From the NCBI GenBank assembly GCA_963697745.1, contig CAVOPD010000018.1:229515-261514 (forward strand): 32,000 nt of DNA, read 5' to 3'. The notes beneath the pieces are model-generated. The model ran no database searches. It saw only the letters and a list, made by a program, of their open reading frames with translations, and was not told the DNA's origin. The position numbers and the translations under genes were made by a program. This DNA is from an uncultured Acidobacteriota bacterium (GTDB taxonomy: Bacteria > Acidobacteriota > Vicinamibacteria > Vicinamibacterales > CAVVIG01). Shown in pieces: positions 14,432-25,967 of this stretch (within the stretch, counting starts at the first letter, position 1; each line of letters opens with the position of its first letter).

Positions 14432-16664
14432 ATGGACGTGAAGAATTCGCTTTCGGACACGACAGTAGGAACAGGGTTCGCGTTCTCGGACACGATTGCC
14501 GGGTACGTCTCCGGCGTTGATACAGACCGCAACGGATTCCGCGTCACCACGTCGGACGGCCGGGAATTCCCGGTCCGGTTCTCGGCCGCCTGCTACGCGG
14601 AACTCGCGCGCAACCTCGGGCGAGTCGTACATCGACTGCACGGGCCAGATGCGCGACATGCTGCAGCCCGGGCCGCTTCCTCTACGCCTACGGCGTGTTC
14701 TATCCCGACGTGGCGCAGGGGCTCGAAGCCGAGCACGTCATCTTCGTCGGCCGCGGCCCGACCGAGTTCGTGTTCGAGAAGCCGGACTGGTGGGTCCACC
14801 AGATCCAGGAACTCGGCAACTTCTACTTCCGCGCGCAGTTCGGCGACGGTCCCGTCGACTATCGGAACTACCGCACGATGCTGGACCTCTATGGGCGCAA
14901 GATCGAGGCGACGCGGCAGGAAACCGACACCATCTCGCGCCTGATCTTCGGCTTCGCCTCCGCCTACCTGCTCACCGGCGACGAGCGGTTCCTGACCGCG
15001 GCCGAAAAGGGCAGCGACTACCTGCGCGAGCACTTCTGTGCGGTCGACACGGCGGAGGACACCTGCTACTGGTACCACGCGGTGGACTTCGCCGAAGCCA
15101 AGGGACGGAAGGTGCTCGGCTCGAAGATGGCCGAGATTCCCGGCATGCGTCGTTCCGGCCAGGCCTCCTCGCGCGAGCGGAAGATGCTGTCGTCGGAGTT
15201 CGGCGACGACTGGGATGCCATCCCCGCCTACGAGCAGATCTACGCGCTCGCCGGCCCCACGCAGACCTACCGCATCACCGGCGATCCGAAGATCCGCAAG
15301 GACATCGATCGCACGCTGAACATGTTCAACAAGTACTACCGCGACTACGAACAGGGCGGCTACTTCTCGCACATCGACCCGGTCACCTTCAATCCGAAGG
15401 CCGATTCGCTGGGCCGCAACCGCGGTCGCAAGAACTGGAACTCGGTGGGCGACCACGCGCCCGCGTACCTGATCAACCTGGTGCTCGCCACCGGCGAGGC
15501 GGCAGCACGAGGAGATGCTGATCGACACGGCGACCACGATCGCGACCAGGCTTCCCCGATTACGACAACAGCGCCTTCGTCCAGGAGAAGTTCCACGAGG
15601 ACTGGAGCCCCGACCGCGAATGGGGCTGGCAGCAGAACCGCGCGGTGGTGGGCCACAACCTGAAGATCGCGTGGAACCTGATGCGCATCCAGCATCTCAA
15701 GGCGGACGATCGCTACGTCGCGCTGGCGGAGAAGATCGCCGGGCTGATGCCCAAGCACGGCGGCGATCCGCAGCGCGGCGGCTGGTACGACGTCGTGGAG
15801 CGCGCGCTCCCGCCTGGACAGAGCGTGCACCGCTTCGCGTTCCACGATCGCAAGGCGTGGTGGCAGCAGGAGCAGGGCATCCTCGCGTACCTGATCCTCC
15901 ACGGCTCGCTCAAGAAGCCGGAGTACCTGAAGCACGCGCGCGAGTCGTCGGCGTTCTACAGCACGTTCTTCCTCGATCACGATTCGGGCGCGGTGTACTT
16001 CAACGTGCTCGCCAACGGCATGCCGTACCTGCTCGGCACCGAGCGGAACAAGGGCAGCCACTCGATGAGCGGTTACCACTCGTTCGAGCTGTGCTACCTG
16101 GCGGCGGTGTACACCAACCTGCTGATCACCAAGCAGCCGCTCGACATGCACTTCAAGCCGAAGCCGGGCGCGTTCAAGGACAACATCCTGCGCGTCGCGC
16201 CGGACATCCTGCCCAAGGGCAGCATCAAGATCGAGTCGGTCACCGTGGACGGCAAGGACTACACGGATTTCGACGCCGATGCGCTCACCGTCACCATCCC
16301 GCAGGCGGACGAGGCGGTGAAGATCGTCGTCCGCATCGCGCCGACCGAGGGTCTGTCGCACTTCTCGGCTCACGTCAAGGTGGACAAGAACGTGGCGACG
16401 CTCACGCTCGTCGGTGATGCCGACCACGTGTCGTTGCCGTACCTCCAGTCGGCGCTGCAGGAAGTGATCGCCGCGCAGCCCAACTCGCTGGTCATTCGCG
16501 CCAAGGATCTCAAGACGTTGTCGCCGGCCGCCGTACGCGCGCTCATCTTCGGCAAGCAGAAGCTGCGGACGGATGAGGACGTCGAGGTGATCGGCGCCAA
16601 CCAGACGGTGAAGGACGCGCTGAACGCGAGCGAGTTCGGCGAAAGCATCAGCTTCTCCAAGTAG
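14432..16664 (+). pseudogene. AGE-superfamily (N-acylglucosamine 2-epimerase-like, alpha/alpha6 barrel) protein with beta-sandwich and STAS-like C-terminal extension, about 4 frameshifts as assembled
   Basis: ATG 14432. Plus-strand frames run a, b, c, a, b (a = frame of ORF 14432, b = frame of ORFs 14496 and 15645, c = frame of ORF 14695). Changes lie near 14630, 14680, 15505 and 15560. Segments: ..AELARNLG; ESYIDCTGQMRDMLQPG; RFLYAYGVFYPDVAQG...TDTISRLIFGFASAYLLTGDERFL...GGYFSHIDP...WNSVGDHAPAYLINLVLATGE; EMLIDTATTIATR; FPDYDNSAFVQEKFHEDW...VVGHNLKIAWNLMRI...GGWYDVV...KAWWQQEQGILAYL...KGSHSMSGYHSFELCYLAAV. The last ~100 aa (VATLTLVGDADHVSLPYLQSALQEVIAAQPNSLVIRAKDLKTLSPAAVRALIFGKQKL..DVEVIGANQTVKDAL) look STAS/anti-sigma-antagonist-like. 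Confidence 0.7.
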
Positions 16665-16690: not shown

Positions 16691-16730
16691 GAAGGCCGCC
16701 GGGCGCCAGCCGGCGGCCTTCTTTCGTTTC
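16691..16730 (+). terminator. intrinsic terminator after the AGE-like gene
   Basis: GAAGGCCGCCGG gcgccag CCGGCGGCCTTC: perfect 12-bp stem, followed by TTTCGTTTC. Confidence 0.75.
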
Positions 16731-16731
16731 G

Positions 16732-18192
16732 ATGCGCTATGATCTGAAACGCTTCCCTTTCCAGATGGCGCACGACGTATTCATCAGCTACGCATCCAGA
16801 GACAAGGTCGCCGCGGATGCAATCTGCGACGGCCTCGAGCGACGCGGTATCCGGTGCTGGATCGCGCCGCGCGATATCGTCCCCGGGGTCCCGTGGGCGG
16901 AGTCGATCATCGACGCCATCGAAGGATCGGGCGTGATGCTCCTCATCTTCAGCGATGCGTCGAACAAATCGGTGCAGGTGCAGCGCGAGGTCGAGCGGGC
17001 CGTGCACAAGGCGGTCGCCCTCGTCCCGCTGCGCATCGAGAACGTGATGCCGACGCGGACGATGGAGTATTTCATCAGCTCGCAGCACTGGTTCGACGCC
17101 ATCCAGCCGCCGATCGAGCAGCACCTCGAACGCCTGGTTCAGGGGATCACGGCACACCTGGTGCGCCGCTCCAGCAATGCACCATCGGTGTCACCGGCGC
17201 CCGCAGCCAGCGGGCCGGCCGCTGCAGTTCCCGAGAGGCCCGCCGCTCCGGTGTCCGGCGCCGTCGCCCCGCCGATACCGGTGCCCGCGTCTACGCCGAC
17301 CTCCGCGCCGGCGCCGACCCCGCCCCTGCCGATCTGCCGCCGGATGAACCGTTCGTCATCGGAAGCTACGAACTGGGGCGGGTCATCGCCACCGGGCGGT
17401 TCGGCAGCGTGGTCTACGCCGGCACGCATCGGCTGCTCGGGAGTCCAGTGGCGGTTCGGGTGTACCGGCCGACCGAAAAGGACAACAAGGAAGCCGTTCG
17501 CGCCAGATTTCTGCGTGAGGCGCGGGCGCTGCAGGTGGTCCATCCGAACATCATCCACGTCCGCGACTTCGGCGAGACCAGCGAGTTGATGTACGTGGTG
17601 ACCGATCTGCTGGCGGGAGTCAGCCTCGGGGAACTGGTGCGCACTGGACGGGCGCCTCGCGATCGACAAGCTGAATCAGTTCGTCAGGGAACTGAGCGAC
17701 GCCACCGCTGCCGTTCACGCGCACGGCGGGTTCATCTCGGGACTGCACCCGGAAATCGTGCGTGTGGTTCGGGAGAAAACCGAGCGCCTGGCGATCTCGT
17801 CAGCCGGCATTGGCGGCATGCAGGATCTGCTCGCCACCATGAACGAGGCGACGTTGCGCGGCCAGGTCGCGCCGAACGAGTTGTCCTACGTCGCGCCGGA
17901 ACTGCTCATGGGCAACGCCGCCGATCAGCGCGCCGATGTCTTCACGATCGGCGCGTTGATGTACTACATGGCCACGGGCCGGCCCCCATACGTGGCGGAG
18001 TCGTTCCCGCAATTGCTCGGACGGATGCTCAGCACCAAGCCACCCGACGTGGGCGTCGAGCGGCCCGACCTGGGTGCCGAGGGTGCCGCCACGATCATGC
18101 GCTGCATCACCGCGGACGCGCAGCTGCGGTTCGAAACCGCGGCCGACGTGTCAAAGGCGTGGCTCACGGCCGTCCCCACGGCTGCGCCGTAG
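16732..18192 (+). pseudogene. TIR domain - Pro/Ala-rich linker - degenerate Ser/Thr protein-kinase-like domain fusion, two compensating frameshifts as assembled
   Basis: TIR: (MRYDLKRFPFQ)MAHDVFISYASRDKVAADAICDGLERRGIRCWIAPRDIVPG..WAESIIDAIEGSGVMLLIFSDASNKSVQVQREVERAV. The linker is SPAPAASGPAAAVPERPAAP.... The kinase N-lobe sits in a second frame from ~17320 to ~17650 (YELGRVIATGRFGSVVYAG..VAVRVY...FLREARALQVVHPNIIHVRDFGE..MYVVTDLLAG). The C-lobe returns to the first frame (LNQFVRELSDATAAVHAHGGFISGLHPEIVRV...LAISSAGIGG...SYVAPELLMG...DVFTIGALMYYMATGRPPY), ending at TAG 18190-18192. Alternative start ATG 16765. Confidence 0.75.
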
Positions 18193-18236
18193 TCATCAGT
18201 CACAAGTTATCAGTCGCAAGTCGCAAGGCAACAGCC

Positions 18237-18280
18237 GCGCACGTGTGCCCTCCTGCATTTCGTGCGCTTCTGCGCTTTCT
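18237..18280 (+). terminator. weak candidate terminator in the convergent intergenic gap
   Basis: GCGCACG (18237-18243) pairs with CGTGCGC (18261-18267) across a 17-nt loop, followed by TTCTGCGCTTTCT. The large loop makes this weak. Confidence 0.3.
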
Positions 18281-18296
18281 GCCTTGACTGCGGTTC

Positions 18297-20168
18297 TTAC
18301 CCAGAGTGCGGTACTTCGAGCGGGCGCTCGCGGTGCAGCAGCACCCAGTCGCCATTTTCCTCGAGCGCTTCCTGGCCAAGCTCCCGCAGCAGGGCCGACG
18401 CCTGCTCCATGTCGCCGCGCGTCAACTGTTCGGCCAGGTGGGACTGCGCGGCATCGAACAGTTCACTCATTCGACTGAACTGCTTCGCGTGCTCCGACCG
18501 CGCCATCTGCTGGTTGTAGCCGTGACGAAGGCCCGCGGTGACCGCAAGTGTCACGATGGCAATCATGATCACGCCGTGAACCCACGGGTCCTCCACCCAG
18601 TGCTTGACCGCCTCGAGTTCGTGCACCGGAACGAGCAGCGGCACCGTCAGCACGAGCGCCAGCAACAGCGCCAGGGCGACGCTCGATCGCACCAGCCACT
18701 CGATTTTCCCCTCCTCGGCTTCGAGCGTGGCCTGTTCACGCCTCGCCTTCGACGCCAGGTAGTTGCGCTGCTCGCTGACCCAGTGGCTGGCCACGTACTC
18801 GAGCCGTGCGGGACTGGGCGCCACCTGTGCCTCGCGCAATTCGTAGGCCTGTGACTCCGCGTCCCAGGCCCGCAGGGCGTTCCGGATCCATTCCAGGGCA
18901 CCGCGCTGCTTGCGCAGGTAGTGGTCCACGACCTTCTCCGACACGCCCGCAACGTGCCAGAAGAACTGGATGCGCAGCGCCTCGGCCAGGGCGCGGTAGT
19001 CCTGGTGCTTGTTCTGGTAGTCCTGTTCCTTGACATCGCGGTGGATCCAGTAGCTCGCGACGATCGACGATCCGAGGAACAGCAGCAGCAGCCAGGGCAA
19101 CGCGAGCAGCCGTTCGCCAAGCGACGGGTGCTCGGGCAGGTGCGCGTGAGGCAGTGAATGAAACAGATTGAAGAACAGTGCCGAGATGAACACCCATCCG
19201 AACAGCTTGCGCGACGCTGCGCGGGTGTTGCCCGCGAAATGGAGTGCGAGCGTGTCGGCGACGGCGTAGTGCTCGAGGGTGATTCGTGCGGAATGCGGCA
19301 GTGACAGGATGGCGTCGGTCAGCGTGCTTTCGCTGACCTGCAGCAGCTGCGCCTTGCTCGTGGCGCGGCTCGCCGCCATTTCATCGTGGAAGTGGAGCGC
19401 GTCCTCGTTGAACTGATCCATCCAGTCCTGCAGTTCCTGGAACGATGCCGCCGACTGTCGCGTCGGCAGCAGCAGCGTGCAGGTCAGCGCCTGCGGCGGC
19501 ACCGGTTCGCCGATGCGCGGGGTCACGATGTGATACACGGGTCCACTGCTGGAGAAACTCAGCGGACTGCCAGTCGGCTCGTACCCTGTTGGAATGCCTT
19601 CGAGCCGGAACCGCACCACTTCTCCGGTGCCGCCGACCTTGTCGGCGCGCCCCGATCCGTTGACGCCGTCCCACAGTGCGAGGAACACCTGGCTCTGGCG
19701 GGCAATCAGGGCGCCCACCTGCGCATACTGCCGGTTCCTCTGCTCCCCATGCTGCGCGATCCCGTCGTCGGTGTTGCCCGACATGAGCGGCAGGACGTAG
19801 GAGCTCTCCGCGACGGCCAGCATGCGCCTGAACTCGTCGCGCGACGCATCGCTCGAGAAGTCCTGCTCGTAGAGGTGATGCTCGAGCGGTAACGGAACGA
19901 CGAGGCGGACCCCGAGTTCGAGCGCCACGCGCGCGACCAGGCGATCGCTCCCCTCAGCCAGCGGCGACAGGAGCAGCAGCGACGTATGCGGATGTGATTC
20001 GCGCACGTCGGCAAGCAGCCGTCTCACGATTCCTTCCAGGGGCGGCAGGTCTTCCGGCCGGATATCCCGGTGTCCGGTGACGCCGATGACAATCGGCAGC
20101 GGTCCTGGCGTCATCCCGCTGGACGACGCGGCGGCGCTTTTTCGGGCGAGCGTGTTCATGCACCCCAT
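18297..20168 (-). CDS. SLOG-type (SMF/DprA-LOG-like) nucleotide-binding domain fused to two 2TM hairpins (SLATT-like); function unknown
   Basis: Intact 623-aa ORF. N-terminal Rossmannoid signatures: PIVIGVTGHRD (res 25-35), LSPLAEGSDRLVARVALELG (res 68-86, DprA-like G.D..A) and ALWDG...KVGGTGEVV (res 164-185, LOG-like GGxGT.E). Hydrophobic hairpin 1 is LFGWVFISALFFNLFHSL...LLALPWLLLLFLGSSIVASYWI (res ~321-375, nt ~19044-19208). Hairpin 2 is WLVRSSVALALLLALVLTVPLLV...VHGVIMIAIVTLAVTAGL (res ~490-547, nt ~18528-18701). Each is preceded by an amphipathic helix (e.g. WVSEQRNYLASKARREQ). The start is 21 nt downstream of the K+ channel stop. Confidence is high for the CDS itself and lower for the domain call. 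Confidence 0.65.
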   Translation of the reverse strand: MGCMNTLARKSAAASSSGMTPGPLPIVIGVTGHRDIRPEDLPPLEGIVRRLLADVRESHPHTSLLLLSPLAEGSDRLVARVALELGVRLVVPLPLEHHLYEQDFSSDASRDEFRRMLAVAESSYVLPLMSGNTDDGIAQHGEQRNRQYAQVGALIARQSQVFLALWDGVNGSGRADKVGGTGEVVRFRLEGIPTGYEPTGSPLSFSSSGPVYHIVTPRIGEPVPPQALTCTLLLPTRQSAASFQELQDWMDQFNEDALHFHDEMAASRATSKAQLLQVSESTLTDAILSLPHSARITLEHYAVADTLALHFAGNTRAASRKLFGWVFISALFFNLFHSLPHAHLPEHPSLGERLLALPWLLLLFLGSSIVASYWIHRDVKEQDYQNKHQDYRALAEALRIQFFWHVAGVSEKVVDHYLRKQRGALEWIRNALRAWDAESQAYELREAQVAPSPARLEYVASHWVSEQRNYLASKARREQATLEAEEGKIEWLVRSSVALALLLALVLTVPLLVPVHELEAVKHWVEDPWVHGVIMIAIVTLAVTAGLRHGYNQQMARSEHAKQFSRMSELFDAAQSHLAEQLTRGDMEQASALLRELGQEALEENGDWVLLHRERPLEVPHSG

Positions 20169-20189: not shown

Positions 20190-21917
20190 TCATGCGTTGT
20201 TGTATCGGTGCGCGGTAAAACCGGCGCGATTGAGGAAAAACGGCAATTGCCGCACGGAACTCCTGTTCATTTCCCGGGCCGCTTCATCGAGCTGCCCCCA
20301 CGGAACGAGGTTCGGGTTGGTCTTCTTCTGCGGATCGCGCGGTCCTGGCGTCCAGCCGAGGGCGCGCCTTTCAGCGAGCCACCTCTCGTGTTCCATTTCG
20401 GCCAGTCGCTCGATTTCTTCAGGGGTGAACGCAAACGAGTCCGCATCGAGCGCGGTCAACGGCACGATGTGGCAGCCGGCGATCTCGAGCTTGGTGGCGA
20501 TATGGTCCGCTTGCGTGCGGCTCGACTCCTTGAGCTCGATCGGCAGATCGTCCCACGGAACCGCCGCGGGATTGCCCTCGATCGACGCATGCGTGAGGTA
20601 ATCCTGGTGCAGCGCTCTCGCGAGAACCTCGTTCGTTCCGCGGAGCACGAACTCGGGCCGGCAGGCCTGTTCGAGCAGGCTGAACACCCGCAGCTGCGGC
20701 AGACCTCGATTGCCATTCGGACCCACCGCGCGCAGCAGCGCCGCCAGGCCGGCTTCCCGGTTCATCCGCACCACCACCGGCACACCGAATCGTCCGAGGT
20801 GGTTCAGGAGCAGGAGCGCGGTCGACAAGGCGAGGCCTTCGTCCTCGAGGCACACATACGCATAGGTGACGACGCACTGGCCCGACTCATCGAAAAGAAA
20901 AGCCGCGCGCTGGAACTCGGTCGAGTGCAGATCGATCGATGCCGCGTGCATCGTGGCCAGCGCATCGAGCTCGGGATGGCGATGATGCAGGTCGAGAGTG
21001 ACCTGCTCGGTGGCCGCGTCCACCAGCGTAATCGGGATCGGCGGTCTCGTCGCGCCTTCGACATCCTGCCACTGACGCACCATGTGGCGGATCAGGTGCT
21101 GGCTCAGAGGACCAGCGCCGACGATCAGGACGTGCGGCGGCGAACTGCGCTCGCGCTGTTGTGCGGTGAAGGGCGAGTATTTCGCCAGCAGGGCCCGTGC
21201 GCCAAGCTCGGTCACATTGAAGAACTCGAGACGGAATCCATCTCGCGTACCGACGTCCCAGCTGCGTAGCGCGTACCACAGATGCGGGTCCTGGATTTGC
21301 GTCGAACAGGAGAGGCTCTGACCTCGCTGCCGCGACAGCGCCCGCGCCTGGGCGGCAATCTCGACGTTGTTCGCGTCGGTGCCCGCGACGACGACCAGGT
21401 GCTTTGCGCGATCGAGACGGGCGCGCCGCAGCACTTCGACGCGCGAGGCGTCGCCAACCAGGACGGCGGCTCCCGCCTCACGGGCCGCGGCAATGTGCGG
21501 ATTCTCCTCTGTCTTTTCGATGGCCAGCACCTGGTACCCGTCGCGTCGGAACGCCTGCGTAAGGAGCACGCCCATCGCGCCGAGGCCGCAAATCACCACG
21601 TGACCGTTGACGCGCCTGATTTTCAGCGCGTCGAGCCGATCGAACTTCACCAGGTATGCGGCCACCGCCGCGGTGAACAGGCCGAGCGCTCCGATTCCGC
21701 TGAACATCAGGAACGCCCCGAAGACGCGTCCCATCGGCGTGATCGGGAAGTAGTCGCCATAACCAACAGTGGTGACGGTGACGACCGCCCACCAGAGCGC
21801 GTCACCGAAGCTGTCGATGTTCGGGTTACGTCCGAATTCAGCGGCGTAAAAGCCGACGGCGCCCGTCAGGACGACGAGCGCGACAAGACCAAGGACGTAG
21901 GCAAGATACGACCGCAT
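20190..21917 (-). CDS. 2TM K+ channel - RCK/TrkA-N - second Rossmann-like domain - tandem RyR-like repeats
   Basis: Intact 575-aa ORF. TM1, pore helix, selectivity filter TVGYGD (TVGYG at nt 21756-21770) and TM2. RCK: HVVICGLGAMGVLLTQAF (GxGxxG). Second Rossmann-like domain: HVLIVGAGPLSQHL. The C-terminus IERLAEMEHERWLAERRALGWTPGPRDPQKKTNPNLVPWGQLDEAAREMNRSSVRQLPFFLNRAGF fits the RyR-domain pattern (LA..HE.W......GW..G......K..P.LVP...L.E......R..V..LP..L...G). It is preceded by a more divergent copy (LARALHQDYL...VPWDDLPIELKESSRTQADHIATKLEIAG). Confidence 0.85.
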   Translation of the reverse strand: MRSYLAYVLGLVALVVLTGAVGFYAAEFGRNPNIDSFGDALWWAVVTVTTVGYGDYFPITPMGRVFGAFLMFSGIGALGLFTAAVAAYLVKFDRLDALKIRRVNGHVVICGLGAMGVLLTQAFRRDGYQVLAIEKTEENPHIAAAREAGAAVLVGDASRVEVLRRARLDRAKHLVVVAGTDANNVEIAAQARALSRQRGQSLSCSTQIQDPHLWYALRSWDVGTRDGFRLEFFNVTELGARALLAKYSPFTAQQRERSSPPHVLIVGAGPLSQHLIRHMVRQWQDVEGATRPPIPITLVDAATEQVTLDLHHRHPELDALATMHAASIDLHSTEFQRAAFLFDESGQCVVTYAYVCLEDEGLALSTALLLLNHLGRFGVPVVVRMNREAGLAALLRAVGPNGNRGLPQLRVFSLLEQACRPEFVLRGTNEVLARALHQDYLTHASIEGNPAAVPWDDLPIELKESSRTQADHIATKLEIAGCHIVPLTALDADSFAFTPEEIERLAEMEHERWLAERRALGWTPGPRDPQKKTNPNLVPWGQLDEAAREMNRSSVRQLPFFLNRAGFTAHRYNNA

Positions 21918-21977: not shown

Positions 21978-22724
21978 TCAGCGTGCGGCTGCCTGCTGCT
22001 TGACCCGTTCGGCTGCTGCGGCCGCTGCGGCCGCGTCACCCAGGTAGTAGTGGCGCAGCGGCTTGAGGTCGGCATCCAGTTCGTAGACCAGCGGGATGCC
22101 GGTCGGGATGTTCAGTTCGACGATGTCGGCTTCGGAGATGTTGTCGAGGTACTTGACCAGAGCGCGCAGGCTGTTGCCATGCGCCGCGACAATCACCCGT
22201 CGTCCACTCCTGATTGTCGGCGCGATGGTCCCGTGCCAATACGGCAGGAATCGGGCGACCGTGTCTTTCAGCGATTCGGTGAGCGGAAGGTTTGCCGCAT
22301 CGAGTCCAGCGTACCGCGGATCCCGCGACGGATGCCGCTCATCGTCGAGCGTGAGCGGCGGTGGCGGGGTGTCGTAGCTGCGACGCCAGATCTTGATCTG
22401 CGCCTCGCCGTGCTGGGCCGCTGTTTCGGCCTTGTTCAGCCCCTGCAGCGCGCCATAATGGCGTTCGTTGAGGCGCCAGTCCTTCTCGACCGGCAGCCAC
22501 ATCTGGTCGAGGGCGTCGAGCGTGATCCACAACGTCCGGATGGCCCGCTTCAGGACAGAGACGTAGGCCTGGTCGAAGACGTAGTTGCCTTCCTTGAGCA
22601 ATCGGCCAGCCTCGGCCGCCTCTTCTCGCCCCTTGTCGGAGAGATCGACGTCGGTCCAGCCGGTAAACCGGTTCTCCCGGTTCCAGGTGCTTTCACCATG
22701 ACGGAGCAGAACGAGTGTGTACAT
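21978..22724 (-). CDS. gpmA: 2,3-bisphosphoglycerate-dependent phosphoglycerate mutase
   Basis: [32 protein letters not shown]...[16 protein letters not shown]...[16 protein letters not shown]. Intact, with AGGAG upstream. Confidence 0.95.
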
Positions 22725-22742
22725 GTCGGGCGCTCCTGAGAG

Positions 22743-25332
<2,590 letters not shown>

Positions 25333-25339
25333 AACCGCT

Positions 25340-25967
25340 TCAGCTCCTTCGGAGGATGACGCGCGCCGGCGCGCCGTCGGCGCCAACCACCGCGAGCGGC
25401 AGGCAGAACATCTCGAAGGTCCCGGGCTCGACGTCGCGAAGGTTGAGGCCCTCGATCACGATGGTGCCGGCTCCGAGCAGCACGTGATGCGCGGGTGCAC
25501 CGGGCGTTTTGTACTGTTCGACCGACAGGTAGTCCACACCAAGGACCTTCACTCCGCGGTCGACCAGGAACCGGGCCGCGCCCTCGGTGACGCCAATGAA
25601 ATCCTGATGAAACTCCGGCGTGCCCCAGAGACGGGAATTATGGGTCTTGAGCAGCAGGCGTACGTCCTCGCGCAGATCGAAGCCGGCCAGGTCCTCGGCG
25701 GTCACGCTCCGCCGTGGTCGTGAGTTCCACGACCCGCGCGCGGCCGCACAGCATTTCGAGCGGCAGGCTCTCCACACCGCCACCTTCGTCGAAGAAGTGA
25801 CGAGGCGCATCGACGTGCGTTCCCGAGTGCGCGCTCATGTGCAGCGTCGATACATTCGAGCTGTCGCCGTTGGCCCGCCGTTTGATGGCCTCGAGGCGGA
25901 ACGGCGTGTTTCCCGGGTAGGTGGCCAGGTTCGAATCGATAGGGACGCTGATGTCGATGAGTTTCAT
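25340..25967 (-). pseudogene. cyclase-family protein (kynurenine formamidase-like), one frameshift as assembled
   Basis: ATG 25967: MKLIDISVPIDSNLATYPGNTPF...STLHMSAHSGTHVDAPRHFFDEG (HxGTHxDxPxH motif). After ~25705-25720 the protein continues in the frame of ORF 25340..25810: VTAEDLAGFDLREDVRLLLKT...GVDYLSVE...HHVLLGAGTIVIEGLNL. Confidence 0.75.

What the first reader, a model, noticed from the sequence alone, without database searches (positions are those of the whole stretch)
18297..20168. 623-aa SLOG-like domain fused to two 2TM hairpins and long helical spacers
The sequence shows an intact ORF whose first ~190 residues carry the three glycine- and acid-rich loops characteristic of the SMF/DprA-LOG (SLOG) Rossmannoid fold. 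After a ~130-residue helical region comes a 2TM hairpin (res ~321-375). A ~110-residue charged helical segment (QDYQNKHQDYRALAEALRIQFFWHV..., WVSEQRNYLASKARREQATLEAEEGK) follows, then a second 2TM hairpin (res ~490-547) and a ~75-residue helical tail. A duplicated SLATT-like unit behind a single SLOG sensor is not an architecture I can place in a characterised family. By analogy with TRPM (SLOG plus channel) it may itself be a ligand-gated pore.
Basis: partly seen in the sequence, partly recalled or inferred. Interest (0 to 1): 0.75.

Follow-up and report, generated by a model that had tools for sequence, protein, structure and literature searches.

The report
TIR-linked SLOG sensor with four-helix membrane module
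This gene encodes an uncharacterised but widespread membrane protein with a nucleotide-sensing SLOG domain. It usually sits next to a TIR signal-making enzyme, and here also next to a potassium channel with a ryanodine-receptor-type domain, so it is probably the membrane output of a bacterial ADP-ribose-signal pathway.

Summary
Window 18297-20168 (-) is an intact 623-aa ORF. It has an N-terminal SLOG domain (best fold match YpsA, E 2.5e-7), a helical linker, two 2TM hairpins and a conserved C-terminal helix. Hairpin 1 is SLATT/DUF4231-like. Hairpin 2 could not be shown to be a SLATT duplicate, because reversed-sequence controls scored as well.

The protein belongs to a large unnamed family: at least 1,235 clusters, 202 species hits and 10 or more phyla.

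- A TIR gene with a conserved catalytic Glu lies within 3.7 kb in 38 of 82 loci, and directly adjacent in 27.
- In the window it is a TIR-kinase gene that is frameshifted in this assembly.
- A K+ channel-RCK-RyR gene lies immediately upstream here and in five phyla.
- In the reverse test, relatives of that channel carry a TIR gene in 27 of 80 loci and this SLOG subtype in 15 of 80.
- Two 2026 preprints show that phage RyR domains bind cADPR isomers.

Best reading: a Thoeris-like effector gated by an ADP-ribose signal, working with the RyR channel.

A 2025 preprint already lists 'SLOG and 4TM' as an unvalidated Thoeris effector; two systems gave no defence in E. coli. I rate this a new variant of a known kind, with moderately high interest.

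The parts
18297..20168 (-). Complete ORF of 623 aa: SLOG domain, helical linker, 2TM hairpin 1 (SLATT/DUF4231-like), cytoplasmic helical segment, 2TM hairpin 2, conserved C-terminal helix.
   Evidence: ORF call; GC3 0.84; at least 1,235 homologues, nearly all full length; AF2 model pLDDT 89.7, pTM 0.88.
19464..20099 (-). SLOG domain (residues 24-235), YpsA-like. Invariant loops are GVTGHR, SPLAEGxDR and WDG...GGT.
   Evidence: Foldseek of the domain-only model: YpsA 2nx2 E 2.5e-7, TM 0.53/0.64. All 12 hits with E<=1e-3 are SLOG-superfamily proteins, and BcThsA SLOG-3'cADPR 7uxs_B scores E 6.5e-3. Pfam YAcAr matches 15 of 32 members, best E 5.5e-5, below the gathering score. Invariant columns.
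19206..19463 (-). Helical linker (residues 236-321) between the SLOG domain and the membrane. The last helix runs directly into TM1.
   Evidence: DSSP on the AF2 model: helices 240-259, 265-276, 280-288 and 292-338.
19053..19205 (-). 2TM hairpin 1 (TM1 residues 322-340, TM2 354-372), the core of the SLATT/DUF4231-like unit. The periplasmic loop HSLPHAHLPEHPS is His-rich.
   Evidence: Hydropathy. DUF4231/SLATT_3 hits in homologues map here (P0039 scores 26.3 bits against a GA of 24.7). Loop composition.
18681..19052 (-). Cytoplasmic helical segment (residues 373-496) containing the most conserved family motif, DYQNKxQDYRALAExLRxQFFW...YLRKQRxxLxWI.
   Evidence: Invariant columns D390 Y391 R392 L394 A395 E396 R399 Q401 W404 L418 L425 W427. 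Helices 384-407, 426-447 and 453-512. The same WLDYRTLAEQFR motif follows TM2 in the distant Caballeronia homologue.
18528..18680 (-). 2TM hairpin 2 (TM3 residues 497-515, TM4 529-547). It has the same topology as hairpin 1, but homology to SLATT is not demonstrated.
   Evidence: Hydropathy. hhalign of unit 1 against unit 2 gives P = 0.002, no better than reversed controls.
18300..18527 (-). Cytoplasmic C-terminal helices (residues 548-623) ending in the near-invariant motif ELGxEALEENGDWVLLHRERPLEVPxxG.
   Evidence: Invariant columns G598 E600 A601 L602 W608 L611 H612 R613 R615 P616 P620. Helices 551-584 and 587-613.
20190..21917 (-). Upstream gene, separated by a 21-nt gap: a K+ channel (2TM P-loop, filter TVGYGD) with an RCK/TrkA_N domain, a second Rossmann-like region and a C-terminal RyR (PF02026) domain. 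Probable operon partner.
   Evidence: Pfam: Ion_trans_2 4e-18, TrkA_N 3e-18, RyR 7e-13. An ortholog lies immediately upstream (4-nt overlap) or adjacent in 13 non-redundant loci from five phyla.
20214..20414 (-). RyR (Repeat12-type) domain of the channel (residues 502-568), a candidate site for binding ADP-ribose-derived signals.
   Evidence: Pfam RyR 49.1 bits against a GA of 27.4. The HERW motif is invariant in orthologs. Phage PF02026 proteins bind or cleave 2'/3'cADPR and cADPR (PMC13232231; bioRxiv 10.64898/2026.06.04.730250).
16765..18192 (+). Convergent downstream gene ending about 105 nt from the target's stop: TIR_2 domain plus Ser/Thr protein kinase. It is broken by two frameshifts in this assembly.
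   Evidence: Pfam TIR_2 9e-24 and Pkinase fragments in three frames. tblastn with the intact 459-aa ortholog of L006 gives 73-79% identity in frames 1, 3, 1. The intact ortholog has TIR_2 plus Pkinase.

Best explanation
The ORF encodes the membrane output protein of a TIR-based (Thoeris-like) nucleotide-signalling module.

Proposed mechanism, with each step marked as shown or inferred:
1. A neighbouring TIR protein cleaves NAD+ and makes an ADP-ribose-derived signal, such as a cADPR isomer. Here the TIR is fused to a Ser/Thr kinase; elsewhere it is fused to TPR, WD40 or STAND modules. Inferred from Thoeris precedent; the catalytic Glu is shown to be conserved.
2. The cytoplasmic YpsA-like SLOG domain of this protein binds that signal. 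The fold is shown; binding is inferred from the ThsA SLOG-3'cADPR precedent.
3. The change passes through the helix that continues into TM1 and through the strongly conserved juxtamembrane helices. It reaches a four-helix membrane module made of a SLATT/DUF4231-like hairpin and a second hairpin.
4. That module then oligomerises or opens and dissipates the ion gradient. Inferred from the predicted and partly tested role of SLATT effectors in CBASS and type VII Thoeris.
5. In this lineage the protein is co-expressed with a K+ channel carrying RCK and RyR domains. That RyR domain belongs to a fold family now known to bind cADPR isomers. The same signal would therefore act on two membrane proteins, possibly as a complex, causing K+ efflux, depolarisation and growth arrest or altered physiology.
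For: - SLOG fold: domain-only model against the PDB, YpsA E 2.5e-7, with all top hits in the SLOG superfamily including ThsA SLOG-3'cADPR. The full-length model gives the same set.
- SLATT-like first hairpin.
- 4TM topology with all soluble parts cytoplasmic.
- TIR linkage: my TIR HMM finds a TIR gene in 38 of 82 non-redundant family loci. All first copies lie within 3.7 kb although 8 kb per side was scanned, and 27 are directly adjacent. Pfam independently finds TIR_2 in 11 of 71 immediate upstream and 14 of 71 immediate downstream genes.
- The putative catalytic Glu is conserved in 96% of these TIR domains.
- Distant relatives repeat the link. The Caballeronia plasmid SLOG-DUF4231-4TM protein lies next to TIR and WD40 genes. 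A 162-aa homologue of this SLOG sits in a TIR-caspase operon on B. subtilis pBS72.
- RyR-channel linkage: found in 13 loci from Acidobacteriota, Verrucomicrobiota, Armatimonadota, Nitrospirota and Desulfobacterota, mostly with a 4-nt gene overlap.
- Reverse test: of 80 metagenomic loci encoding relatives of the RCK-RyR channel, 27 carry a TIR gene and 15 carry a SLOG of exactly this subtype.
- Literature: SLOG binds 3'cADPR in type I Thoeris, a SLATT effector responds to cADPR in type VII, an ion-channel effector defines type X, and 'SLOG and 4TM' is listed as a candidate effector (10.64898/2025.12.03.692087). RyR-domain proteins bind or cleave cADPR isomers.
Against: - No ligand binding, pore activity or phenotype was tested here.
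- The only published tests of 'SLOG and 4TM' systems (Streptomyces sp. GKU 895 and Ca. Nitrospira nitrosa) gave no phage defence in E. coli. I could not retrieve those effectors to check whether they belong to this family.
- 44 of 82 loci show no TIR within 8 kb. In Ignavibacteria/Kapaibacteria the gene sits among housekeeping genes.
- The window locus is syntenic among Vicinamibacterales and is flanked by enolase, GlgC and isoamylase, not defence genes. PADLOC finds nothing.
- In 11 metagenomic loci the same SLOG subtype is a free-standing 160-245-aa protein beside the channel. A SLOG with no effector domain suggests an accessory or enzymatic role rather than a sensor-effector one.
- The membrane helices carry few conserved polar residues (only H531), so a selective pore is unlikely.
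- The window's TIR-kinase gene is frameshifted.
Confidence: 0.5

Rival explanations
1. The protein is an accessory subunit and does not form a pore itself. It is a membrane-tethered partner of the RyR-domain P-loop channel. Its SLOG domain senses, buffers or chemically processes the TIR product, for example by cleaving an N-glycosidic bond. This would tune channel gating, and the 4TM module would dock it onto the channel in the membrane.
For: - The channel gene and this gene overlap by 4 nt in most channel-linked loci, which suggests translational coupling and matched stoichiometry.
- In 11 of 80 channel loci the same SLOG subtype is a free-standing small protein with no effector domain, next to or overlapping the channel gene.
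- A free-standing homologue also accompanies a TIR-caspase pair on pBS72.
- The most conserved parts of the family are cytoplasmic helices rather than membrane-embedded polar residues.
- The SLOG superfamily includes N-glycosidases such as LOG (PMC9503650).
Against: - About 80% of family loci have no RyR channel nearby, yet the 4TM module and its motifs are conserved in all of them. The module therefore probably has a function of its own.
- The first hairpin matches SLATT/DUF4231, a domain repeatedly found as a stand-alone effector.
- The acidic residue after GGT that LOG enzymes use is not conserved here; the motif varies as GGTGE, GGTSR and GGTSQ.
Confidence: 0.25
2. The module serves physiological signalling rather than phage defence. 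A TIR-kinase converts an internal or environmental cue into an NAD+-derived second messenger. That messenger regulates K+ flux and membrane potential through the RyR channel and the SLOG-4TM protein as part of normal physiology.
For: - The locus is vertically inherited and syntenic in Vicinamibacterales. The gene order GlgC, enolase, His-phosphatase, channel, SLOG-4TM, TIR-kinase, epimerase/STAS, isoamylase is kept at 64-77% protein identity.
- There are no PADLOC hits and no plasmid or phage copies of the full-length family.
- Sequence conservation across phyla is unusually high for a defence effector, with 42% mean column identity and many invariant residues.
- The TIR partner is fused to a Ser/Thr kinase.
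- The published 'SLOG and 4TM' systems gave no defence.
Against: - The distribution is patchy: 202 hits among 185,579 species representatives, spread over 10 or more phyla.
- Other TIR partners carry STAND, AAA_35, nSTAND1, TPR and WD40 modules.
- Distant homologues occur on a plasmid and in a TIR-caspase operon.
- All three features are typical of conflict systems.
- Lack of defence in E. coli is weak evidence for systems taken from distant phyla.
Confidence: 0.3
3. The SLOG domain is a membrane-anchored enzyme, a LOG-like nucleotide or nucleoside N-glycosidase unrelated to TIR signalling. The hydrophobic segments simply anchor it to the membrane.
For: LOG and TM1055 are among the fold matches, and the GGT loop resembles the LOG PGGxGT motif.
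Against: - The best fold match is YpsA, and the nearest Pfam family is YAcAr in the YpsA-like, non-LOG clade.
- The LOG catalytic Glu after GGxGT is not conserved.
- A plain anchor would not need about 390 conserved residues with invariant cytoplasmic motifs.
- This reading leaves the TIR and RyR linkage unexplained.
Confidence: 0.07

Closest known systems
'SLOG and 4TM' candidate Thoeris effector (Yirmiya et al., bioRxiv 10.64898/2025.12.03.692087, Tables S1/S2)
   Same: Same stated architecture (SLOG plus four TM helices) and the same context, a gene next to a TIR gene. It was proposed as an effector that responds to a TIR-made signal.
   Different: - That class rests on only five TIRs of one TIR cluster. 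Those TIR domains are not close to any TIR in my loci.
- The two tested systems gave no defence.
- I could not obtain the effector sequences, so family identity is untested.
- The preprint does not mention a RyR-channel partner, a kinase-fused TIR or the wide distribution in Acidobacteriota and other soil phyla.
Type VII Thoeris effector ThsH (SLATT domain; signal canonical cADPR)
   Same: TIR-associated membrane effector with a SLATT/DUF4231-type 2TM hairpin. It is predicted to oligomerise in the membrane on signal binding.
   Different: ThsH has no SLOG domain and binds the signal in pockets between SLATT protomers. The protein here adds an N-terminal SLOG domain, a second hairpin and a conserved C-terminal helix.
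Type I Thoeris effector ThsA (SIR2-SLOG)
   Same: A SLOG domain serves as the receptor for a TIR-made cADPR isomer. The ThsA SLOG domain is a fold match (7uxs_B, E 6.5e-3, prob 0.97).
   Different: The output domain of ThsA is a soluble SIR2 NADase, not a membrane module. This SLOG is closer to YpsA than to ThsA.
Type X Thoeris (TIR plus ion-channel effector ThsK) and phage RyR-domain proteins (RyDEP, RyR Tad)
   Same: The neighbouring gene is an ion channel in a TIR context. Its C-terminal PF02026 domain has the fold that binds 2'cADPR, 3'cADPR and cADPR in phage proteins.
   Different: - Whether ThsK carries a RyR domain is not stated in the preprint.
- The phage proteins are soluble sponges or glycosidases, not channel domains.
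- In the window's clade, two of the six ligand-contact positions appear substituted (H to N, D to N). This is my own motif matching without a direct alignment to RyR Tad.
TRPM channels (SLOG/MHR1-2 domain plus 6TM cation channel)
   Same: An N-terminal SLOG domain is coupled to a membrane ion-flux module. TRPM4 and TRPM8 are fold matches for the SLOG domain.
   Different: There is no 6TM P-loop channel in this polypeptide. The P-loop channel is a separate neighbouring gene. The resemblance is one of logic, not of family.

Membership tests
SLOG superfamily (YpsA-like clade) | Rossmannoid three-layer alpha/beta fold superposable on solved SLOG proteins | tested here: met
   The domain-only AF2 model (pLDDT 89.7) was searched against the PDB. 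YpsA 2nx2 scores E 2.5e-7 with TM 0.53/0.64. All 12 hits with E<=1e-3 are YpsA, DprA, ShosA or MoCo carrier protein. LOG, TM1055, TRPM4 and ThsA SLOG follow.
SLOG superfamily (YpsA-like clade) | Conserved Gly-rich and acidic nucleotide-binding loops after strands 1, 2 and 4/5 | tested here: met
   Invariant G29 T31 G32 H33 R34; S68 L70 G73 D75; W166 G168 G179 T181 in 32 sequences.
SLOG superfamily (YpsA-like clade) | Match to a curated SLOG Pfam model at its gathering score | tested here: not met
   YAcAr (PF10686) scores E 0.038 and 14.3 bits for the query against a GA of 28.2. The best family member reaches E 5.5e-5, and 15 of 32 members match weakly. The family is therefore a distinct SLOG subfamily that no curated model covers.
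SLOG superfamily (YpsA-like clade) | Binding of a nucleotide or ADPR-derived ligand | not testable with these tools
   Needs biochemistry or ligand-aware modelling.
SLATT / DUF4231 (SMODS- and SLOG-associating 2TM effector) | Profile match to PF14015 or PF181xx over a helix-2TM-helix unit (unit 1, residues about 285-405) | tested here: inconclusive
   The query itself has no hit with E<=1. DUF4231 matches 19 of 32 homologues, with P0039 at 26.3 bits above the GA of 24.7. SLATT_3 matches 8 of 32, all mapping to unit 1. The distant Caballeronia homologue scores 30.9 bits.
SLATT / DUF4231 (SMODS- and SLOG-associating 2TM effector) | Second hairpin (residues about 455-585) is a homologous SLATT unit, i.e. 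a duplication | tested here: not met
   Only faint hits fall on unit 2: SLATT_1 in 2 of 32 members (E >= 0.034) and SLATT_6 in 1 of 32. The one SLATT_1 hit I could map, in P0089 (E 0.054), lies on the helix preceding TM3. hhalign of unit 1 against unit 2 gives P = 0.002, but reversed-sequence controls give 0.0007-0.001.
SLATT / DUF4231 (SMODS- and SLOG-associating 2TM effector) | Genomic association with a nucleotide-signal-generating enzyme | tested here: met
   A TIR gene occurs in 38 of 82 loci and is adjacent in 27.
Thoeris (TIR signalling defence system) | TIR-domain gene adjacent to the effector gene, with a catalytic Glu | tested here: met
   The window's TIR-kinase gene ends about 105 nt from the target, although it is frameshifted. 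TIR adjacency across the family is shown. The Glu is conserved in 96% of 45 TIRs.
Thoeris (TIR signalling defence system) | Location in defence islands, or similarity to catalogued defence proteins | tested here: not met
   PADLOC gives no significant hit for the target or the channel. The window neighbours are enolase, GlgC, His-phosphatase and isoamylase, in a syntenic chromosomal locus.
Thoeris (TIR signalling defence system) | Protection against phage that depends on the TIR signal and the effector | not testable with these tools
   The two published 'SLOG and 4TM' systems gave no defence in E. coli. Their identity with this family is unverified.
TRPM-type SLOG-gated channel | SLOG domain and a 6TM P-loop cation channel in one polypeptide | tested here: not met
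   The protein has only four hydrophobic segments and no Ion_trans hit. The TRPM4/8 match is confined to the SLOG domain.
PF02026 RyR (Repeat12) ADPR-signal-binding domain (neighbouring channel) | Pfam RyR match above the gathering score | tested here: met
   49.1 bits against a GA of 27.4, at residues 502-568 of the 575-aa channel.
PF02026 RyR (Repeat12) ADPR-signal-binding domain (neighbouring channel) | Ligand-contact residues reported for RyR Tad (H129/W132, K147/H154, K170/D171) conserved | tested here: inconclusive
   Positions were matched by motif only, not by a direct alignment to RyR Tad. HERW is invariant and the Lys is present. The window's clade has KKTNPNLVPW (apparent H to N) and MNR (apparent D to N). 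The small free-standing RyR ORFs in L030, L041, L054 and L059 carry what look like all six residues.

The most novel reading that the evidence does not exclude
The window holds a bacterial three-part ion-flux module. A TIR enzyme makes an ADP-ribose-derived messenger. Two different receptor domains read it: a RyR Repeat12-type domain fused to a P-loop K+ channel, and a SLOG domain fused to a SLATT-like four-helix membrane module. These are the same two ligand-sensing domain types that eukaryotes carry on the cADPR/ADPR-linked channels RyR and TRPM2. The module would then be a prokaryotic antecedent that links both eukaryotic channel families to TIR-made signals. In this lineage it may be used for kinase-controlled physiological signalling rather than phage defence.
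Probability: 0.3. Interest if true: 0.85.

Novelty: new variant of a known kind. Interest (0 to 1): 0.62.

Why it matters
If the mechanism holds, three things follow.

1. Thoeris-type signalling would gain a large effector family. The family spans hundreds of species in soil and sediment phyla that are barely sampled by E. coli- and Bacillus-centred screens.

2. It would give the first cellular, non-phage setting in which a RyR-type domain sits on an ion channel beside a TIR enzyme. The long-debated link between cADPR and ryanodine receptors could then be tested in a simple bacterial system.

3. It offers a natural case in which one messenger may control two membrane proteins. That is useful for understanding how SLOG and SLATT modules gate membrane permeability.

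If the module proves to be physiological rather than defensive, it would show that bacterial TIR signalling is not restricted to immunity.

Tried and rejected
1. Sequence search of the family profile against PDB sequences found nothing meaningful (best E 0.6).
2. PADLOC and NCBIfam gave no hits for the target.
3. The internal-duplication test of the two hairpins looked suggestive at first (P = 0.05 with 32 sequences, P = 0.002 with 197). I rejected it after reversed-sequence controls scored as well or better.
4. I tried to identify the published 'SLOG and 4TM' effectors through their TIR sequences. The Nitrospira TIR query returned only 55-64% relatives, and the one with a usable contig had no SLOG neighbour. 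The Streptomyces TIR query returned nothing. Neither TIR is close to any TIR in my loci.
5. The longer homologues (670-740 aa) that seemed to cover only about 45% of the query are not domain-swapped variants, judging from the one I aligned. In P0085 the two matching halves are separated by an expanded His-rich insert in the periplasmic TM1-TM2 loop.
6. No phage copies exist, and plasmids carry only distant partial homologues.
7. Rfam and promoter scans around the operon found nothing relevant.
8. The exact-sequence look-up found no record for the window's own protein, so the source organism is inferred only from relatives that are 76-77% identical, from Acidobacteriota/Vicinamibacterales.
9. 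The Burroughs et al. 2015 paper that defined SLOG and SLATT is not held in the library. Statements about it rest on later papers that cite it and on the Pfam names.


Full report
**Observation.** Its codon-position GC pattern (0.70/0.43/0.84) is that of the real genes in this 65% GC window.

Hydropathy analysis finds four membrane-length hydrophobic segments at residues 322-340, 354-372, 497-515 and 529-547. They appear both in the query and in the family average. The two connecting loops are 13 residues long and acidic or His-rich. Lys and Arg flank the opposite ends, so the predicted topology is N-in/C-in with every soluble part in the cytoplasm.

An AlphaFold2 model built on 32 homologues is confident (pLDDT 89.7, pTM 0.88). 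It shows:
- an alpha/beta domain at residues 25-233;
- a helical linker whose last helix (292-338) runs into TM1;
- long cytoplasmic helices between the hairpins;
- two C-terminal helices.

**A large, conserved, unnamed family.** A protein search returned at least 1,235 homologous 90%-identity clusters, nearly all full length. Where a source names them, they are called 'hypothetical protein'. A scan of one genome per GTDB species found 202 relatives. The best 80 cover query residues of about 22-620. They come from Acidobacteriota, Verrucomicrobiota, Armatimonadota, Ignavibacteriota/Bacteroidota, Chloroflexota, Planctomycetota, Eremiobacterota, Nitrospirota, Desulfobacterota and large sulfur Gammaproteobacteria.

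Conservation is strong, with 42% mean column identity. The invariant blocks are:
- three SLOG loops (GxTGHR; SxLAxGxDR; WDG...GGT);
- a juxtamembrane block, DYQNKxQDYRALAExLRxQFFW...YLRKQRxxLxWI;
- a C-terminal block, ELGxEALEENGDWVLLHRERPLEVP.

The closest relatives (76-77% identity) are Acidobacteriota/Vicinamibacterales MAGs, which is the likely origin of the window.

**Domain identities.**

*SLOG domain.* Pfam gives the query only a sub-threshold YAcAr (YspA/cpYpsA-related SLOG) hit. Fifteen of 32 family members match weakly, the best at E 5.5e-5. The fold test is clear. A model of residues 18-236 alone (pLDDT 89.7) has YpsA 2nx2 as its best PDB match (E 2.5e-7, TM 0.53/0.64). DprA, ShosA, MoCo carrier protein, LOG, TM1055, TRPM4/TRPM8 and the B. 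cereus ThsA SLOG domain bound to 3'cADPR follow. The full-length model retrieves the same set. The Glu that LOG enzymes use after the GGxGT motif is not conserved, so a sensor role is more likely than a LOG-like enzyme.

*First hairpin.* Together with its flanking helices it is SLATT/DUF4231-like. DUF4231 matches 19 of 32 members, one above Pfam's cut-off, and SLATT_3 matches 8 of 32. All matches fall on residues of about 285-385.

*Second hairpin.* I could not show that it is a duplicate. Profile-profile comparison reached P = 0.002 with a 197-sequence alignment. Reversed-sequence controls reached 0.0007-0.001, so the score reflects hairpin composition and not homology. It remains a second 2TM hairpin with the same topology.

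**Gene context.** This is the main new evidence.

*TIR genes.* I clustered all ORFs in the flanks of the 82 non-redundant family loci and scanned the immediate neighbours with Pfam.
- TIR_2 is the commonest neighbouring domain: 11 of 71 immediately upstream genes and 14 of 71 immediately downstream genes.
- A TIR HMM built from these neighbours finds a TIR gene in 38 of 82 loci.
- In every one of those loci the nearest TIR lies within 3.7 kb, although 8 kb per side was scanned. It is directly adjacent in 27.
- The Glu at the position of the TIR NADase catalytic residue is conserved in 96% of these TIRs. The role of that residue is established knowledge about TIR NADases.
- The TIR partners are multidomain proteins: TIR-Ser/Thr kinase, C-terminal TIRs, and TIRs that accompany AAA_35/TPR or nSTAND1 NTPases.

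In the window the partner is a TIR-kinase gene at about 16765-18192 (+), convergent with the target. It is 73-79% identical to the intact 459-aa ortholog of locus L006 but is read in frames 1, 3, 1. The neighbouring epimerase/STAS gene is also frameshifted, so assembly indel errors are the likelier cause.

*RyR-domain channel.* The second recurrent partner is the gene 21 nt upstream (20190-21917, -). It encodes a K+ channel with a TVGYGD filter, an RCK/TrkA_N domain, a second Rossmann-like region and a C-terminal RyR (PF02026) domain.
- Orthologs lie immediately upstream, usually overlapping by 4 nt, in 12 non-redundant loci from Acidobacteriota, Verrucomicrobiota, Armatimonadota and Nitrospirota.
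- In a Desulfobacterota locus, L066, a channel relative lies 5 nt downstream. My pore HMM did not match it.
- Ten of these 13 loci also contain a TIR gene.
- Small free-standing RyR-domain ORFs occur in four loci, and an AAA-RyR protein in another.

*Reverse test.* I fetched 80 metagenomic loci encoding relatives of the RCK-RyR channel.
- Twenty-seven contain a TIR gene, often 4-80 nt away.
- Fifteen contain a SLOG of exactly this subtype (E 1e-35 to 1e-41 for the free-standing ones).
- Four of those 15 loci carry a full-length SLOG-4TM gene. A fifth, L100, has both a full-length copy and a shorter SLOG ORF.
- In the other ten loci the SLOG is a free-standing 160-245-aa protein adjacent to or overlapping the channel gene. 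Counting L100's short ORF, there are 11 such ORFs.
- Only 8 of the 80 matched my K+-pore HMM. Of the ten relatives I examined, most keep a 2TM P-loop-like region with TLESG in place of T[VI]GYGD, and others are STAND NTPase-RyR proteins.

*Distant relatives.* These repeat the theme. A Caballeronia plasmid encodes a 577-aa 'DUF4231 domain-containing protein' with a homologous SLOG domain (35% identity), the same WLDYRTLAE motif, three clear hydrophobic segments and a likely fourth. It lies beside TIR and WD40 genes. B. subtilis plasmid pBS72 has a TIR-caspase operon followed by a 162-aa homologue of this SLOG.

**Literature.** Yirmiya et al. (bioRxiv 10.64898/2025.12.03.692087, December 2025) define 11 validated Thoeris types and about 18 further putative ones.
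- In type I, a SLOG domain binds 3'cADPR.
- In type VII, a SLATT effector responds to canonical cADPR.
- In type X, the effector is an ion channel and the signal is unknown.
- Table S2 lists 'SLOG and 4TM' effectors from Streptomyces sp. GKU 895 and Ca. Nitrospira nitrosa. Both were tested in E. coli with the result 'No' defence.
- Table S1 holds only five TIRs of that class.

I could not retrieve those effectors, so whether they belong to this family is untested.

Two preprints from 2026 show that phage PF02026 RyR-domain proteins bind or cleave 2'cADPR and 3'cADPR. One of them also binds canonical cADPR with sub-micromolar affinity, and both report ligand contacts shared with animal RyR Repeat12 (PMC13232231; 10.64898/2026.06.04.730250).

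By motif matching, without a direct alignment to RyR Tad, the channel's RyR domain keeps the invariant HERW motif and the Lys. In the window's clade two of the six contact positions appear substituted (H to N, D to N). The small free-standing RyR ORFs look canonical at all six.

Neither preprint on phage RyR domains, nor any paper found with my search terms, describes a bacterial TIR / RyR-channel / SLOG-4TM module.

**Interpretation.** The best-supported reading is a Thoeris-like pathway. The TIR protein makes an ADP-ribose-derived signal. The SLOG domain binds it. The signal is passed through the helix that runs into TM1 and the conserved juxtamembrane helices to a SLATT-like four-helix membrane module, which then compromises the ion barrier. 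In this lineage the RyR-domain K+ channel is a second receiver of the same signal, or a physical partner.

What is shown:
- the fold;
- the topology;
- the SLATT-like first unit;
- the statistical gene linkage in both directions;
- conservation of the TIR catalytic residue.

What is inferred: ligand identity, ligand binding, oligomerisation and pore formation.

Three observations limit confidence to about 0.5:
- Free-standing SLOG proteins of the same subtype sit beside channels, which favours an accessory or processing role.
- The locus is syntenic and set among housekeeping genes with no defence-catalogue hits, which favours physiological signalling.
- The published 'SLOG and 4TM' tests were negative.

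**Novelty.** The general logic (TIR signal, SLOG or SLATT receptor, membrane effector) is known, and the architecture has been listed as a candidate. New here are:
- the size and phylogenetic breadth of the family;
- its reciprocal linkage with RyR-domain P-loop channels;
- the kinase-fused TIR partner;
- the conserved chromosomal setting.

I therefore rate it a new variant of a known kind, with moderately high interest. The interest comes mainly from the module placing a RyR-type domain and a SLOG domain, the sensor types of eukaryotic RyR and TRPM channels, next to a TIR enzyme in bacteria.

Noticed in passing
window 16732-18290 (+) and 14496-16664 (+): Relative to intact orthologs, the TIR-kinase gene is read in frames 1, 3, 1 and the GlcNAc-2-epimerase/STAS gene in frames 1, 3, 1, 2 (L006 459 aa; L001 737 aa). 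Several frameshifted genes side by side suggest indel errors in the assembly rather than true pseudogenes.
   Followed up: partly
window 19092-19142 (-), residues 343-359 region; homologues P0080, P0085, P0087: The periplasmic loop between TM1 and TM2 is His-rich (FNLFHSLPHAHLPEHPS). In 670-740-aa homologues such as P0085 it expands to roughly 100 residues of His/Ala/Pro-rich repeats. It could be a metal- or pH-sensing element on the outer face.
   Followed up: partly
L041 5864-6166, L054 5557-5955, L030 6548-6835, L059 9989-10273: Small free-standing RyR-domain ORFs (94-132 aa) lie next to the channel or the SLOG-4TM gene. They carry the canonical H..W, K..HP and EKEYDR motifs. They resemble phage RyDEP/RyR Tad and could be host-encoded buffers or degraders of the signal.
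   Followed up: partly
L096, L115, L125, L129, L138, L140, L146, L153, L163 (metagenome loci): Free-standing 160-245-aa SLOG proteins of the same GVTGHR/LAEGADR/WDG..GGT subtype sit adjacent to or overlap RyR-domain genes (2TM P-loop-RCK-RyR or STAND-RyR). In the 2TM P-loop relatives I examined, the filter reads TLESG instead of T[VI]GYGD. TIR genes are often nearby.
   Followed up: partly
L088 2629-4483 (B. subtilis plasmid pBS72): A TIR gene, a caspase-family gene and a 162-aa hypothetical protein homologous to this SLOG domain (24% identity, E 7e-6) form one operon. It looks like a type IV Thoeris system with an extra SLOG gene.
   Followed up: no
L087 1-10570 (Caballeronia sp. SBC2 plasmid pSBC2-4): A distant SLOG-DUF4231 homologue (577 aa; three clear hydrophobic segments and a likely fourth) lies upstream of a TIR protein and a WD40 protein, and near a TPR-cyclase. 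A TPR-S/MAP3K_TRAF_bd/guanylate-cyclase gene also precedes the family member in L002/L003.
   Followed up: partly
L048, L050, L057, L058, L069 (Terriglobia): These loci share a conserved same-strand arrangement. An AAA_35+TPR NTPase gene (about 1,027 aa) sits 19-22 nt upstream of the SLOG-4TM gene, and in four of the five loci a TIR protein (660-730 aa) precedes it. This is a STAND-type variant of the system.
   Followed up: partly
window 16691-16721 (+): A strong terminator-like hairpin (12 pairs, 10 G-C, T-rich tail) sits between the epimerase/STAS gene and the TIR-kinase gene, so the TIR-kinase is probably transcribed on its own.
   Followed up: no
window 21978-25386 (-): Histidine phosphatase (PGM-like), enolase and GlgC-like nucleotidyltransferase genes lie upstream of the channel on the same strand, and isoamylase lies on the other side. 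This carbohydrate-metabolism neighbourhood is syntenic in Vicinamibacterales relatives L006-L010.
   Followed up: partly
A3 downstream set: Papain-family cysteine protease (Peptidase_C1) genes are the immediate downstream neighbour in 5 of 71 family loci. I did not establish which clade they belong to or whether the linkage is meaningful.
   Followed up: no
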